Source: Octopus vulgaris (taxonomy: Eukaryota). Taken from it: 64,000 bases of DNA. The notes beneath the pieces are model-generated. The model was given only the letters and a program-made list of their open reading frames with translations, had not been told where the DNA came from and did not search any database. This document shows, in pieces, positions 5,701 through 62,005 of this stretch; within the stretch, counting starts at the first letter, position 1; each line of letters opens with the position of its first letter. Both the position numbers and the translations under genes were made by a program. The stretch covers positions 18,848,001-18,912,000 of the forward strand of contig OX597832.1 in NCBI GenBank assembly GCA_951406725.2, read 5' to 3'.

Positions 5701-6409
5701 TTAGAAAACACCGCCTCAATGAAGATCTATTTCTATCTCCGCTGCCACCACTCACCACGTGGTCTGCTTCTAAATAATTCAATAATACATAAGGCTTTCA
5801 TAGCAAAGCGATGATCTGACCGGATATTTAGATAGTCTTGTAAATACCTGAAGTTATATGTTATGGCTCTTTCGTTTCTGAACTCAATTTTCTCCAAGAT
5901 CAGCTTTGGATTTTACCTCTACTGATGCGGAAAAAAATGTACCAGTCACGTTTTGAGGTCGATGGTGTCAACTAGTACCCTGCTTTCAATTTTTTTGGCT
6001 TTGTTTTTAAATCATGAACAATGATTTTTATTTTGCTATTACACGATATTCTAACAGTCGTAATTGTGCTTTTTTTCGGTCTAATTTGGGTGCAATTTTT
6101 CTACACTGATCCTATAAATACCTGCATTCGTATCTGTTTATTTGTGAAGTCTATAACTCCAACTAAACAACTGTCTTGCATTTCTATCACTCCCATATTA
6201 AGGTTTAGCTTTCCAAAATTTGACCCCATTTAGTCGTCAGTTGTTCTCAACCCCTCTAAAGTAACTGATACGATGAAATACTTGTAAACTTCTTGGTTAA
6301 AAAATATTCATTTTTTACACTACCATCAATAAAGTTGGGCCATATCTGTAAAATCAAGAATATAGAAACGAAAGTAGAATGCTTCCATAACTTACGTGGA
6401 AACCATGAG

Positions 6410-6690: not shown

Positions 6691-8812
6691 TAATAATAAG
6701 AGCAAGTTACCTTTTCGACTCATGCCGAGTCACGAGGGCCGGTTTCTCGTCGTATATATTTCGCATTGGTGGGTCACCGGTTTATCAAGTGACTTGCATT
6801 TCTATCACTCCCATATTAAGGTTTAGCTTTCCAAAATTTGCCCCCTTTTAGTCGTCAGTTGTTCTCAACCCCTCTAAAGTAACTGATACGATGAAACACT
6901 TGTAAACATATTGGATAAAAAAAATTCATTTTTTACACTACCATAAAGAAAGTTGGGCCATATCTGTAAAATCAAGAATATAGAAACGAAAGTAGAATGC
7001 TTCCATAACTTACGTGAAAACCATGAGCGTTTTTTCAGGGGAGATAATTAGAGAAAGACTTTATGTAAAGTGTAGTAAATATAACAAATAATCCATAATC
7101 CTTATCCAATACTGGATCCATCGTTTTCGGCAGCTGAGTGACCTGGAGAGACGTTAAATGAAGTGTTTAGCTCAAGAACACAACGCGTCGACCGATCCTG
7201 AAATAAAAACTACTATCTTACGAACATGAGTCCAATACCCGTAACCACTAAGGCACGAGCCTCCCATCTCTCCTCATTAGGTTTCCAAGTGCATTTCATA
7301 ATTATCGATCACGGAATTATTGCCCTTCACTATGATATAGATGCAAAAGTCCTCCAGTATCGAGATTTAGTATATTGAAGGCTCCCCCGAAGTCATATTC
7401 TTAATCTAATGTGTAAATATGTAGCAAGAAATAAATGTGATAAATTCTCATTCTGATATTCCATGATGATATTTCGGTTGGAAAGCCTAAAATTGCGATG
7501 TACTTCGAATAGAAAATTAGTGACGAATACTCGCATACAGTTTATATATGGATGTATATGTATGTATACACCTTTGTACATATGTGCGTATCTATTATAT
7601 ATATATATGTATAAATGTATCTGTATGTACACATGCACTTATTTCTGCATATACATATGTATAGTGGACGACCGACGAAATCATTAGGAGATTATTGGCA
7701 AATTCTTTAGATATCTTGTCCACGGACAAGCAAACTATCAGACGATGACTGAAACAAATATCCGCATTCGCGAAGTGAAGTGTTAGTAATAATAATAAGT
7801 GTGTGTGTTTCGACTCATGCCGAGTCACGAGGGCCGGTTTCTCGTCGTATATATTTCGCATTGGTGGGTCACCGGTTTATCAAGTGACTTGCATTTCTAT
7901 CACTCCCATATTAAGGTTTAGCTTTCCAAAATTTGCCCCCTTTTAGTCGTCAGTTGTTCTCAACCCCTCTAAAGTAACTGATACGATGAAACACTTGTAA
8001 ACTTATTGGATAAAAAAAATTCATTTTTTACACTACCATAAAGAAAGTTGGGCCATATCTGTAAAATCAAGAATATAGAAACGAAAGTAGAATGCTTCCA
8101 TAACTTACGTGAAAACCATGAGCGTTTTTTCAGGGGAGATAATTAGAGAAAGACTTTATGTAAAGTGTAGTAAATATAACAAATAATCCATAATCCTTAT
8201 CCAATACTGGATCCATCGTTTTCGGCAGCTGAGTGACCTGGAGAGACGTTAAATGAAGTGTTTAGCTCAAGAACACAACGCGTCGACCGATCCTGAAATA
8301 AAAACTACTATCTTACGAACATGAGTCCAATACCCGTAACCACTAAGGCACGAGCCTCCCCATCTCTCCTCATTAGGTTTCCAAGTGCATTTCATAATTA
8401 TCGATCACGGAATTATTGCCCTTCACTATGATATAGATGCAAAAGTCCTCCAGTATCGAGATTTAGTATATTGAAGGCTCCCCCGAAGTCATATTCTTAA
8501 TCTAATGTGTAAATATGTAGCAAGAAATAAATGTGATAAATTCTCATTCTGATATTCCATGATGATATTTCGGTTGGAAAGCCTAATTGCGATGTACTTC
8601 GAATAGAAAATTAGTGACGAATACTCGCATACAGTTTATATATGGATGTATATGTATGTATACACCTTTGTACATATGTGCGTATCTATTATATATATAT
8701 ATGTATAAATGTATGTATCTTAGCATATATGTATGTACACATGCACTTATCTCTGCATATACATATGTATAGTGGACGACCGACGAAATCATTAGGAGAT
8801 TATTGGCAAATT
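6603..8812. repeat. Tandem duplication, ~1.1 kb unit x2, plus older partial copy at 6175-6520
   Basis: attctttagatatcttgtccacggacaagc at 6603 and 7702; gattattggcaaatt at 7690 and 8798; interiors nearly identical. Confidence 0.95.
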
Positions 8813-24978: not shown

Positions 24979-25580
24979 AGGCGGCGAGCGCAGAAACGTT
25001 AGCACGTCAGGCGAAAGGCGTAGTCGGAATTTCGTCTGCCGCTACGTTCTGAGTTTAAATTCCACCGAGGTCGACTTTGCCGTTCATCCTTTAGGGGTCG
25101 ATTAAATAAGCGCCAGTTATGCACTGGGGTCAATGTAATCGATTTAATCTGTGTGTCTGTCCTTGCTTGTCCCCTCTGAGTTTAGCCCCTTGTGGGTAGT
25201 AAAAAACTAGGTATTTCGTCTGCCGCTACGTTCTGAGTTCAAATTCCGCCGAGGTCGACTTTGCCTTTTATCCTTTCGGGTTCGATTAAATAAGTACCTG
25301 TTACGCACTTGGGTCGATATAATCGACATAATCCGTTTGTCTGTCCTTGACTGTCTCCCTCTGTTTATCCCCTTGTGGGTTGTAAAGAAATAGGTATTTC
25401 GTCTGCCGTTGTGTTCTGCGTTCAAATTGCGCCGAGGTCGACTTTGCCTTTCAATCTTTCGGGGTCGATAAATTAACTACCAGTTACGCACTGGTGTCAA
25501 TGTAATCGACTTAATCTCTTTGTCTGTCTTTGCTTGTCCCCTCTATGTTTAGCCCCTCGTGGGTAAAAAAGAAATAAGTA
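24979..25580 (+). mobile_element. SINE family B, one headed copy plus two headless ~183-bp tandem units
   Basis: g(a/t)atttcgtctgccg recurs at 25027, 25211 and 25394; central gaggtcgactttgcctttcatcctttcggggtcgat box resembles a MetaSINE-type domain (recalled, unverified). Confidence 0.9.
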
Positions 25581-56868: not shown

Positions 56869-57083
56869 TCTTTTACTTGTTTCAGTCATTTGACTGTGGC
56901 CATGCTGGAGCACCGCCTTTTTAGTCGAGTAAATCGACCCCAGGACCTATTTTTTGTAAGTCTAGTACTTATTCTCTCGGACACTTTTGCCGAACCGCTA
57001 AGTTACTGGGACGTAAACACACCAGCATCGGTTGTCAAGCGATGTTGGGGAGACAAACACAGACAAACATACACACACACATG

Positions 57084-57133
<50 letters not shown>

Positions 57134-57293
57134 ACGGGCATCTTTCAGTTTCTGTCTACCAAATCCACTCACAAGGCATTGGTCAGCCCGAGGCTATAGT
57201 AGAAGACACTTGCCCAAGTTGCCACGCAGTGGGACTGAACCCGGAACCATGTGGTTAGCAAGCAAACTTCTTACCACACAGCCACACCTACAC
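56868..57293 (-). mobile_element. SINE family A, full length
   Basis: Reverse copy of 53548-54028. Confidence 0.92.
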
Positions 57294-57310
57294 CTATATA
57301 TATATATATA

Positions 57311-57763
57311 TAAATTAGTAATGCAATACTACAGTATTGCTTTCCAGTAAAGAATAGCCCGTGAGGGAAAAATACACAAAGTAGTAAATATATGGCACAA
57401 CGAAGTACCGATATTTACTGGAAATAGCGAACGTAATAATACGACGCTAATGTATAGCTTCACCGCGTATGTATTAGCAAAAATGCGTGTGTGCAACAAA
57501 CTAGAAAAGATTGTCTTACCTCCAGGGAGAACATCTGAAAGATGAAATACCTGGAAAAGGATAATGTGGGACCTGCAGGTTTCAGATTTTACAAGATATG
57601 TCTGCCACCCATAATCTTGTTCTATCTTCATCAGCCAAGCATATACCATGACAAATCTACGATGTTACCACATTAAAGCCATTACAATCGACTGAAACGC
57701 CGAAACGCCAACAGCACGAAAACGGTGAAGAAGCTTCAATAAATTAGTAATGCAATACTACAG
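57311..57763 (-). mobile_element. Retrozyme-like / solo pLTR unit (429 bp) with 24-bp direct terminal repeats
   Basis: taaattagtaatgcaatactacag at 57311-57334 and 57740-57763; canonical hammerhead inside; abuts (TA)n. Confidence 0.7.
57564..57642 (-). ncRNA. Type I hammerhead ribozyme with intact catalytic core
   Basis: AUG-cu-UGG CUGAUGA AGAU aga ACAAGAU [16 nt] AUCUUGU aaa AUCU GAA ACC-UGCA-GGU C^ CCA-CAU; predicted cleavage between plus-strand 57570 and 57569. Confidence 0.88.
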
Positions 57764-57911
57764 AAACCAAAGATAAAACTTAGTACATACATATATACAT
57801 AAATGCATGTGTGTGTATATATAGATAAACAGACAGATGCATGTGCATGTATTTCTGTGTGTGTGTGAGAGAGAGGGGGCAGTGTGTATAAATATTTACC
57901 TATGTACACAT

Positions 57912-58278
57912 CTTTTACTTGTTTCAGTCATTGGACTGCGGTCATGCTGTTGCACCGTCTTGAAGAATTTTTACTCGAACGGATCGACACCTGTACATAA
58001 TTTTTCAAACCTGGTACTTATTCTATCAATTTCTTTTGCCGAACTACTAGGTTACGGGGAAGTAAACACACCAACACCGGTTGTCAAGCGGTGGTGGGGG
58101 AACGAAACAGACAATATTGCAATATCTATACATACATGAGAGGGTCTTCTTTCAGTTTCCGTCTACCAAATTCACTCACAAAGCTTTAGTCGGCCCTGCG
58201 CTATATTTGAAGACACTCCCCCAAGGTGTTACGCAGTGGCAAGGATCCTGGAACGATATGGTTGGGAAGCAAGCTTCT
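57912..58278 (-). mobile_element. SINE family A (diverged)
   Basis: cttttacttgtttcagtcattggactgcgg... through ggttgggaagcaagctt. Confidence 0.85.
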
Positions 58279-58459
58279 TTTATTCATCAAATTGGCCATA
58301 TATTCATTCATTCATTCATTGTTCGACCGTGGTCGAGACAATTGAATTTACCATGCTACGCCAGACTTCACGGTCCATCATAGCATTATGCAGGTCCTGT
58401 TGCTGGATGCCTGTATCCCTGGAGATTACATCTGGGTTGGAGAGTGTGCGCCCTCTGGT

Positions 58460-60500
58460 ATTGCGAGTAAGGCCATAAAGGCCTTACAAAGACAGGAAGC
58501 TGTGAGCTGGACAAGGACACACTGAGATGAAATGATAAACGATTGGATAATAATGAAGGTAACAGCAACGCCCGTCGATTGCTGTTTACCCGAGCACATT
58601 GATCTTTATAAATACCACATTTGAGGCAACAAACTTCTTACACAGTTCAAAGTAAAACATCGATGAGCCAATAAACCTCTTGGATTTACAATACAAAAGC
58701 CATTGTGAGGCAATAAACCTCTTACACAAGTCAATCATAAAATCAATGAAACAATACAAATGAGGCACCAAGCCTCTTACTTTAATTAATTACAAATCTT
58801 CCTGTCCGACTTCTCGCCTTGGTCAAACATCTGGACGGTGTCAAGTCGGGCCGCTTGAATACGAAATTGAAAGTGTCCTCTGGAAGGAGTTGATTATCCT
58901 GCACAGATCCGTTTCCTGTATGACCTCCGCAGCCACCTGCGTTGGCAAGTCAGGGTCCTCCGTGCAGGACAGAATCCATTCCCTTCGACCCTTCTTTTTA
59001 AACTTCTTAATGATGTTTCCTATTGCCCTTCTCCTTTTGGAAGAGGACCACAAACTCCTCCTCCACAGCATGGAAGGGATCTATAGTTTCCGCCTTCGGT
59101 GGCACAACTTCCACCGAAGGTACTTCAGGACACGCCGGCAGTGTATCACAAACCGCCCGCAATGTCCCGTGTTTCATTGTTTTCCTTTTTTATCTGAGCC
59201 ACGCCAGGGTGGCGTTCCTCCGATTTGTCCAGCAGATCTTCCCCTCCTCCCACAGCCTTTGGATCCTTATGATCCTTCAGTAGGCAACCATTGTTGCCCA
59301 CCTTTCATTTTTTCCTTTTTTCCAGTAGCTTTCCACCTCCTCGACTTCCTCCTTCTATCCCTCCAATGACGGAGCAGGGAGCGGTATATTTATCAACTGC
59401 TCAAGGATCTTATTTTGGTCCTGGGGGCAATTATTTTGATGAGACCCTGTTCTAGGCACAGGTGACACTTAGGGGGGCCTCCCTCAAGCGTCACCGGATA
59501 CCTAGACCCGGCCGTTCTTAAAAACTGGAGATACCATATTTTCGGCTCTTGAGTCCATAGGATCAAAACAGCTTTTGACCCCTCCCAATCAGCCGCAGGC
59601 AGAATGTTCCCCCTTAGAAGCTTGGTACTGCTGCCACCCAGACCCCGGTGGATAGCATCTTATATCCACTCGGGCTCAATTCCGCGTAGCAAACCGCAGA
59701 CCCAAGCCCTCGTCAACTTCTTCCCACAATATGTAGGAAGAAACAAAATTTCATTTCCCTCCAAGGGCTGGCTTGCAAATTCGCAAGACTCTTCGGGGGT
59801 GGCAAACAGTAACCACACCGTTGCATATTTGACACCCCGGGAGATCAACTTAATAGAAGGCATATATTCTGCCAACTCCCTCTCAATCATGTTTTTCTCA
59901 AAGACGACAATAGTGTCGAGCGACTTTGAGTAAGTACTCAACACCATCATCTTCTTTTCAAATTCCTCCAACCATTTTTTGGCTGGTGTTATTTCCCATT
60001 CCATAAGTTTATCTTTGTTCTTTGCCATGTGAAAATAATAAGCAGTTCAAAACACAGTTCACAAAAATTCAAATAATAAAAGAGAAAAACAAAAAGAAAG
60101 TCTTAACAAAAGAAAGCAAAAAATGAACAGCTCAATGCAAAGTTTCAAAAATAAATGACAAAAAAAGAGAGGAAGCGAGAGTTCAAGACACAGCGAAAAA
60201 ATGTTTGGCCACACAGTTCTGCCGGCATTCAACTGGAACACAGTTTCTCACAATAATTCCTCGAAATTATTTTTTAAAAATCTCACGAAATTACAAAGGA
60301 ACAGTTCTCACAATTAATTGAGAATAACACAATTCTCAAATGAAATTATGTTTGGAGGCGGGATACGCCCCAAAAACCAATTCTCAGAATTAAGCGAGAA
60401 ACACAAAATGCTCTACTGCAGGCAGACCAAAGCCCATAGACCAGTGAGAACTCGTTGCTTGTACAAAAATAAAATATCACAAACAACGAATCACCACTAG
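58460..60500 (-). mobile_element. Tx1/L1-like element with decayed ORF1 (zinc knuckle) and no ORF2
   Basis: ORF 59660-60028 continues through stops and frameshifts to GRPPKCHLCLEQG...CP near 59420-59490 (CCHC-like), then a basic low-complexity region to 58841; ~470-bp T-rich leader; clade assignment is by recalled resemblance. Confidence 0.6.
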
Positions 60501-61531: not shown

Positions 61532-62005
61532 ATAAGAAAATAGTGTTTGTTTTAACATTTGCGCTTACATACACAATATTTTACGTAGGATATGGGCAGT
61601 TCCCATGAGCACTATCTTTTGAATTTCTGCCATTTTGGGGTTTCCTGGTATCTGAGCTAGGTAGCAATTATCCCCTTTTGCTATCATTCCTATGGTACCT
61701 ATAACAATAGGTATTGATTCAGTCTTCAGGTTCCACATTTTGCTAATTTCTATTTCAAGATATTTATACCTGCTCAGTTTTTGGTAGGTCTTAACAGATA
61801 CTTTTATATCGATTTGGACAGTCATATCAATGAGGAGGCATGGTTATTTGTCTGAAGACTTTCAATATAATATCTGACCTATTTGCAGCTCTCTTTCTGT
61901 CAGTTTGAATGGTGAAGTTCCAGAGGAGTGAGATGTAATTTTTTTCAAGCACCATGGTTGGTTTGTGTTCCCACCAGATTTTATCATGGGACAAGTCCAG
62001 GTTTT
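61532..62005 (-). pseudogene. R4/Dong-clade endonuclease domain and 3' end
   Basis: LLWNFTIQTDR...RSDIIL...LLIDMTV...KLSRYKYLEIEISKMWNLKTESIPIVIGTIG...IQKIVLMGTAHILRKILCM*. Confidence 0.88.

What the first reader, a model, noticed from the sequence alone, without database searches (positions are those of the whole stretch)
57311..57763. Canonical hammerhead ribozyme inside a 429-bp terminally redundant non-coding unit (candidate retrozyme / circRNA element)
Seen: the minus strand 57564-57642 carries every conserved hammerhead nucleotide (CUGAUGA, GAAA, GUC). It has a bulged stem I, an unusually long interrupted stem II (AGAU/AUCU plus ACAAGAU/AUCUUGU) and a short stem III within the palindrome ACCUGCAGGU. 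The surrounding unit starts and ends with the same 24 bp, has no credible ORF and abuts (TA)n. Known: minimal type I HHRs with palindromic stem III occur in Penelope-like element pLTRs and in metazoan non-LTR retrozymes, which self-process into small circular RNAs. Inference: a monomer-plus-overlap insert is what reverse transcription of a ~429-nt circle or tandem transcript would leave, so this may be an undescribed cephalopod retrozyme family.
Basis: partly seen in the sequence, partly recalled or inferred. Interest (0 to 1): 0.88.

Follow-up and report, generated by a model that had tools for sequence, protein, structure and literature searches.

The report
Penelope-mobilised hammerhead retrozyme family
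This is one copy of a family of several hundred short, protein-free repeats that carry a conserved, likely self-cutting RNA motif and land in TA runs with the footprints of Penelope-type jumping genes, which likely copy them from an RNA that may be a small circle.

Summary
The hammerhead is real: the full type I core lies on the minus strand (57642-57564), with covarying stems and a core free of shared variants across 129 copies. The 429-bp unit is a dispersed family (724 exact hits to one 19-mer, 0 control) with no ORF between units. The 24/25-bp overlap is neither a target-site duplication nor a fixed circle junction: it is where this copy's reverse transcription stopped, and other copies run from under 0.1 to 2.66 units. 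Copies are not circularly permuted. They start at two fixed sites 62 nt apart against (TA)n; 29 of 31 inverted insertions use one of each site. That is the Penelope-like (PLE) signature of internal initiation plus tail. Verdict: a non-autonomous PLE of the metazoan retrozyme kind. A circular template is favoured, since 63 of 66 arms read through the cleavage site, stem III is palindromic and there are no long arrays, but it is not shown. RNA data were inconclusive and the partner PLE was not found. New member of a known kind, useful as a test case for how retrozymes move.

The parts
57295..57309 (.). (TA)n target run at the fixed end of the insertion
   Evidence: 115 of 119 arm starts in the 87-locus sample have (TA)4 within 24 nt
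57310..57738 (-). One full 429-bp ORF-less repeat unit; RNA sense inferred to be the minus strand
   Evidence: ribozyme orientation and fixed 3' end agree
57739..57763 (-). First 25 bp of a second unit: the 5'-truncation point of this copy, not a TSD
   Evidence: D16; other copies end at many other positions
57310..57371 (-). 62-nt 'tail' between the two inferred reverse-transcription start sites (unit positions 1 and 63); this copy started at position 1
   Evidence: arm starts: 81 at unit 57-78, 38 at 1-10, 2 other, of 121; 29 of 31 inverted loci use one of each
57372..57372 (-). Major inferred start site (unit position 63), internal in this copy
   Evidence: 48 of 56 single-strand loci start here, 7 at position 1
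57564..57642 (-). Type I hammerhead ribozyme with bulged stem I, long interrupted stem II and short stem III
57571..57580 (-). Palindromic stem III, predicted to be stable only between two ribozymes
   Evidence: hairpin -0.4 vs self-duplex -17.7 kcal/mol; four different palindromes across subfamilies
57569..57570 (-). Predicted cleavage site after GUC (unit positions 261/260)
   Evidence: core geometry; N17 is C in 87 and A in 42 of 129 copies; cleavage untested

Best explanation
This is a dispersed copy of a 429-bp, ORF-less repeat family with a conserved type I hammerhead motif, likely a non-autonomous Penelope-like element (metazoan non-LTR retrozyme) that is copied into (TA)n runs by the reverse transcriptase-endonuclease of an autonomous PLE. 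Inferred cycle: a rare locus with two full ribozymes is transcribed on the minus strand; the two ribozymes pair through the palindromic stem III and cut; the monomer is ligated to a ~429-nt circle that cannot easily cut again. A PLE protein nicks (TA)n and starts reverse transcription inside the RNA at unit position 63 or 1, runs past the cleavage site and round the unit junction, and falls off at a variable point. Priming of both target strands, one at each site, gives the inverted copies with a tail at one end. The window copy began at position 1, copied one unit plus 25 nt, has one ribozyme, and would not release a monomer by itself. Shown: anatomy, family, conservation. Inferred: PLE mobilisation (about 0.85), ribozyme activity (about 0.8), circular template (about 0.55).
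For: Family: 1481 candidates, 40 scored; 724 exact 19-mer hits, 0 control. Fixed starts and variable ends: 81 + 38 of 121 arms in 87 loci. 31 of 87 loci are inverted, 29 of 31 with one arm per site; 115 of 119 starts lie at (TA)4. This matches PLE anatomy (PMC8557442 passages) and two-site internal initiation on AT-rich DNA shown in vitro (PMC11167929 main text). Three autonomous RT + GIY-YIG PLE families with open frames of 753-775 aa exist in G000; two end at (TA)n at two alternative sites about 40-45 nt apart. Ribozyme under selection: 0 of 11 core columns against 96 of 305 other columns carry a variant shared by 4 or more of 129 copies (p = 0.038 by columns); N7 and N17 vary; 103 of 129 copies have one of four palindromic stems III. 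96.5% of cells pair and 6 of 17 pairs change on both sides in 15 distinct sequences; slid controls pair 33-42%. For a circle: 63 of 66 arms reaching unit 250 pass 275, and 37 of 120 arms cross the unit junction. No array longer than 2.66 units among 40 scored of 1558. No sign of a heterogeneous linear master: in 55 tandem loci, recurrent unit1/unit2 differences were 18 pairs in the same direction and 20 opposite, and no two loci share two. Circular fold z = -4.7.
Against: No cleavage, expression or circle was shown. No autonomous partner was found: the unit aligns to the 3' regions of PLE families A, B and C no better than shuffles and tblastn gave nothing below E 0.16. In the anole PLE, ribozyme mutants insert normally and uncleaved RNA is the main template, so read-through does not require a circle. 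Only 4 of 87 loci hold two complete same-strand ribozymes. The active fold has low predicted occupancy in the window's unit (stem I about 0, stems II and III 0.1-0.2), although stems I and II form in the predicted folds of other subfamilies. The number of pairs with double changes alone is not above shuffles (124 of 500), and copies are related, so counts are not independent. Long arrays could be collapsed in the assembly.
Confidence: 0.7

Rival explanations
1. Same non-autonomous PLE, but the template is an uncleaved linear tandem transcript, or monomers joined by template jumps; no circle is needed and the ribozyme only trims precursors.
For: Uncleaved RNA is the main substrate for the anole PLE in vitro. 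20 of 120 arms keep an internal start site with its tail. Unit-to-unit differences within loci (2.1%) are compatible with young homogeneous masters.
Against: Internal initiation loses the RNA 3' of the start site each round, so linear-only copying shortens arrays (inference). Yet units of 419-447 bp persist in subfamilies down to 69-80% identity, and no long master array was seen. Palindromic stems III, including one with a 2-nt loop that cannot close alone, are kept through four sequence changes.
Confidence: 0.3
2. The unit is the pLTR of an autonomous PLE, and these copies are ordinary 5'-truncated insertions.
For: Insertion anatomy is the same as for PLEs. Three events have the unit next to PLE sequence across a TA run: L032/L050 (one duplicated event), L033 and L100.
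Against: Unit joins unit directly, with no ORF in between. No shared non-unit sequence follows the distal ends in 87 loci. The adjacent PLEs have their own unrelated ends and share the TA target. No linked ORF in 10 older-subfamily loci.
Confidence: 0.05
3. The 24-mer is a target-site duplication around a 405-bp insert, or the ribozyme is a chance match.
For: The single window copy, taken alone, looks like this.
Against: The same 25 bases open or sit inside copies at unrelated sites. Core pattern 64 hits against 0 control; covariation.
Confidence: 0.01

Closest known systems
Metazoan non-LTR retrozymes (PMC7229834: coral, mussel, axolotl; parts 2-4 of 6 read)
   Same: Type I hammerhead in an ORF-less 150-450 bp head-to-tail repeat; weak palindromic stem III; well-paired predicted circle; PLEs in the same genome.
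   Different: Here copies are dispersed partial tandems of at most 2.66 units with fixed PLE-type starts and inversions, not arrays up to 62-mers. Stem II is long and interrupted. No circle is shown here.
Retrozymes as non-autonomous PLE derivatives (bioRxiv 10.64898/2026.07.22.740005; parts 1-3 of 5 read)
   Same: Same overall reading: an HHR repeat that borrows PLE enzymes.
   Different: That work rests on co-occurrence and pLTR homology in 35 genomes (vertebrates, three insects, one coral) and leaves the mechanism open. Here the evidence is insertion anatomy, and no pLTR homology to a partner was found.
Poseidon PLE of the green anole, PAc (PMC11167929; main text read)
   Same: Two internal start sites, tail between them, AT-rich target, both strands extended, ribozyme read through.
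   Different: PAc is autonomous, and PLE tails are given as 30-40 nt there; this element has no ORF and a 62-nt tail.
Non-autonomous Chlamys PLEs such as MRC1 (PMC8557442 passages)
   Same: ORF-less PLE passengers with pLTRs and head-to-tail copies.
   Different: They generally resemble their partner's 3' end, and most Chlamys lack canonical hammerheads.
Minimal PLE hammerheads (PMC4209133; parts 1-2 of 4 read)
   Same: Palindromic stem III, dimer-type architecture, no obvious loop-loop contacts; that paper already proposes circles as templates for more-than-unit copies.
   Different: Those have 7-8 bp stems II and sit in pLTRs; here stem II has about 11 bp or more with an internal loop.

Membership tests
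Type I hammerhead ribozyme | Core CUGANGA, GAAA and NUH in order with open stem I | tested here: met
Type I hammerhead ribozyme | Three helices supported by compensatory changes | tested here: met
   6 of 17 pairs change on both sides, in stems I and II; stem III changes between palindromes
Type I hammerhead ribozyme | Match to an Rfam hammerhead model | tested here: not met
   no hit at E 1 or E 10; the long stem II is the likely reason (inference)
Type I hammerhead ribozyme | Self-cleavage after N17 | not testable with these tools
   needs in vitro transcription
Type I hammerhead ribozyme | Loop 1-loop 2 tertiary contact of canonical motifs | not tested
   not modelled
Metazoan non-LTR retrozyme | Short (150-450 bp) head-to-tail repeat with a type I HHR per unit | tested here: met
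   429-bp unit, tandems up to 2.66 units
Metazoan non-LTR retrozyme | No coding capacity | tested here: met
Metazoan non-LTR retrozyme | At least two consecutive complete ribozymes (criterion for an active copy) | tested here: met
   met by the family, 4 of 87 loci; not met by the window copy
Metazoan non-LTR retrozyme | Highly self-paired predicted RNA | tested here: met
   z -4.3 linear, -4.7 circular
Metazoan non-LTR retrozyme | Accumulates as monomeric circular RNA | not testable with these tools
   only contigs of runs guessed to be RNA were available
Metazoan non-LTR retrozyme | No PBS or PPT | not tested
   not searched
Non-autonomous Penelope-like element | Partial tandem with 5' truncation and inverted truncated copy | tested here: met
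Non-autonomous Penelope-like element | Tail at one end, reflecting two internal start sites | tested here: met
   29 of 31 inverted loci
Non-autonomous Penelope-like element | Microsatellite target | tested here: met
   115 of 119 starts at (TA)4
Non-autonomous Penelope-like element | Sequence similarity to an autonomous partner | tested here: inconclusive
   none to three families; G000 holds more PLE families that were not examined
Autonomous PLE (pLTR) | RT + GIY-YIG ORF between the repeats | tested here: not met

The most novel reading that the evidence does not exclude
This family and several sister families in the same genome are RNA minicircle parasites of Penelope-like elements. The circle is the obligatory template; a dimer-only ribozyme restores the unit length that internal initiation loses each round; and one PLE complex primes both target strands at two sites on the circle. 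That would give a genomic readout of rolling-circle target-primed reverse transcription and a reason why PLE-type elements keep their hammerheads.
Probability: 0.45. Interest if true: 0.72.

Novelty: new member of a known kind. Interest (0 to 1): 0.5.

Why it matters
Retrozyme papers name PLEs as the likely carrier but leave the mechanism open, and the role of PLE hammerheads is unclear because the anole element does not need its ribozyme in vitro. This family shows PLE integration marks on an ORF-less hammerhead repeat, with mapped start sites, many subfamilies and young autonomous PLEs in the same genome. That makes both questions testable with a 429-nt RNA. I found no paper describing it in four targeted searches. 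Repeat libraries such as Repbase and Dfam could not be searched, and the supplement of PMC7229834 and the supplements of the bioRxiv preprint could not be read; any of these may already list it.

Tried and rejected
Rfam: no hammerhead hit; only TA-repeat matches to microRNA models. Unconstrained folding of the 101-nt ribozyme region is not better than shuffles (z +1.1). RNA: no RNA holder listed. Runs guessed to be RNA hold the unit as contigs, but contigs give no strand, start or level, and tandem DNA looks like a circle there, so this is no evidence either way; a 450-nt contig in X6 covering 445 bases of a tandem is uninformative for the same reason. No silent single-copy stretch was laid as control. 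Partner search: three PLE families, 20 short-stem-II hammerhead loci (L114-L133) and 20 long-stem-II loci (L272-L291) gave no ORF-linked unit. A first count of recurrent unit1/unit2 differences was discarded because gap placement against the reference created false recurrences; it was redone by direct alignment, which also dropped duplicate loci and overlaps under 40 nt. Run-off at the cleavage site was rejected as the main source of ends: 2 of 66 arms end at 254-266; 4 of the 100 listed of 161 matches end at 260-266, one possibly at the site itself. A recalled Pfam accession was not in the library and a recalled DOI was not held; nothing is taken from either. Three look-ups of earlier findings returned nothing.

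Full report
Observation. The minus strand carries the whole type I hammerhead core at the stated place: CUGAUGA at 57634-57628, GAAA at 57583-57580, GUC with C17 at 57570, a bulged stem I, a two-part stem II and a palindromic stem III. A 25-base direct repeat of period 429 bounds the unit and a TA run abuts its left end. Rfam does not recognise the motif. The only long frame (111 aa) has no Pfam match and stays open in 9 of 118 copies.

Family. A search of G000 (2.8 Gb) gave 1481 candidates, 40 scored. An exact 19-mer at unit positions 74-92 has 724 hits and 0 control hits; tandem and inverted loci count more than once and diverged copies are missed, so several hundred loci is the safe figure. 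Among 129 near-full units, identity runs down to 76% in nine clusters, and older relatives at 69-80% keep periods of 419-447 bp. The nearest copy is 99.4% identical to the window's over unit 80-395. The stretch is also held by runs under four organism codes.

Anatomy. To avoid choosing only full-length copies I took the first 100 of the 724 hits (contigs C1-C3). They gave 87 loci after dropping two duplicates (L154, L155) and leaving out five places already held (L035-L039). Of 121 arms, 81 start at unit 57-78, 38 at 1-10 and 2 elsewhere, while the other ends run from 29 to 827. 115 of 119 starts have (TA)4 within 24 bases, as do 30 of 56 distal ends of single-strand loci. 31 of 87 loci hold an inverted second arm; in 29 of these, one arm starts at position 63 and the other at position 1. 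The same picture held in the earlier loci chosen for length or for an intact core. So the fixed end is the 3' end of a minus-strand RNA and the variable end is a 5' truncation. The window copy started at position 1 and stopped 25 bases into the second unit. The overlap is not a target-site duplication and copies are not circularly permuted.

Match to PLE biology. Partial tandems, an inverted truncated copy, a tail at one end and (TA)n targets are described for PLEs (PMC8557442, passages). The anole PLE protein cuts AT-rich DNA on both strands and starts inside its RNA at two sites; the tail is the sequence between them (PMC11167929). G000 holds at least three young autonomous families with RT and GIY-YIG domains. 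Families A and B end at (TA)n at two sites about 40-45 nt apart; the end of family C was not located. None resembles the unit in DNA or protein. In three events the unit sits beside PLE sequence across a TA run, which a shared target explains as well as co-insertion does. No examined locus has an ORF between units or shared foreign sequence past the distal end. The partner is unidentified.

Ribozyme under selection. In 129 units no core column (0 of 11) has a variant shared by four or more copies, against 96 of 305 other columns (p = 0.038); the free positions N7 (U or A) and N17 (C or A) vary. Stem III is one of four different palindromes in 103 of 129 copies; 11 had no readable core and 15 had rarer forms, some of them probably misread by my pattern. 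One palindrome leaves a 2-base loop and cannot close alone. The window's form is predicted at -0.4 kcal/mol as a hairpin and -17.7 as a duplex of two copies. On 15 distinct subfamily representatives, 96.5% of cells pair and 6 of 17 pairs change on both sides; cells with double changes (27) and the covariation score exceed all 500 shuffles, but the number of such pairs does not (124 of 500), and relatedness inflates these counts. Activity is inferred, not shown.

Circle or line. 63 of 66 arms that reach unit 250 pass 275, and 37 of 120 cross the unit junction; 96 of 100 listed matches next to the cleavage site continue into the core. Templates were therefore uncut or rejoined there. The longest array among 40 scored of 1558 candidates is 2.66 units, and only 4 of 87 loci have two complete ribozymes in one direction. 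Internal initiation discards the RNA 3' of the start site, so purely linear copying should shorten arrays each round (inference); a circle restores length, as PMC4209133 already proposed for PLEs. In 55 tandem loci the units differ at 195 of 9472 sites, with no directional recurrence (18 same, 20 opposite) and no two loci sharing two differences: no trace of a heterogeneous linear master, though a young uniform master would look the same. Against: the anole ribozyme is dispensable in vitro and uncut RNA is the main template; template jumping is not excluded; long arrays may be collapsed. Unexplained: 4 of 9 arms that reach the second cleavage site end within 6 bases of it, none exactly; this may be stalling at structure, and the number is small. 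I put the circle at about 0.55.

Comparison and novelty. It works like a non-autonomous PLE and meets every testable feature of the metazoan non-LTR retrozymes (PMC7229834); circle accumulation could not be tested. That such repeats are PLE passengers is already argued (bioRxiv 10.64898/2026.07.22.740005). What is added is the insertion anatomy on an ORF-less hammerhead repeat, a long-stem-II ribozyme form, and the scale: a looser pattern finds 1600 such ribozymes (control 2) in several families, some in short tandems of 431-546 bp. Four searches found no description for cephalopods; the giant squid genome paper only counts 235 Rfam hammerheads (PMC6962438, passages). Repeat libraries and two sets of supplements were not seen. 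Verdict: new member of a known kind, interest 0.5.

Noticed in passing
G000, genome-wide; L282-L291: 1600 long-stem-II type I hammerheads (control 2) in several unrelated-looking families. Some form short or inverted tandems with periods of about 431-445, 474, 507 and 545 bp; no linked PLE ORF in the 10 loci checked, apart from one weak, distant hit in L289. Likely sister retrozyme families.
   Followed up: partly
L085-L113, L248-L259, L260-L271: Three young autonomous PLE families with many open frames of 753-775 aa. Family A has a hammerhead-like core with C in place of U4; family B has a U3-A8-like core with a short palindrome.
   Followed up: partly
L032 and L050 (G000:C1:85.25 Mb and C6:32.21 Mb): A 5.8-kb duplicate, 99.6% identical, in which the unit is joined by a short TA run to a 5'-truncated family A PLE in the same orientation: either a template switch or two insertions in one TA run.
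   Followed up: partly
L068:5343 and L076:3861/4282: Another long-stem-II hammerhead family, with an inverted pair ending at (TA)n.
   Followed up: no
window 56869-57290 and 57911-58279: Two copies of a SINE-like repeat, 78-88% alike, flank the element (D7, D9, D11); the element sits in the TA run just after the first. The label SINE-like is recalled, not tested.
   Followed up: no
window 6210-6240, 6828-6858, 7923-7953 (minus): Three near-identical matches to the loose hammerhead core pattern; stems not checked.
   Followed up: no
window 25029-25580: Three tandem copies of a 184-bp unit, 84% matches.
   Followed up: no
window 59393-60046 and 61565-61843 (minus): Open frames that look like fragments of decayed retroelement proteins; resemblance recalled, not tested.
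   Followed up: no
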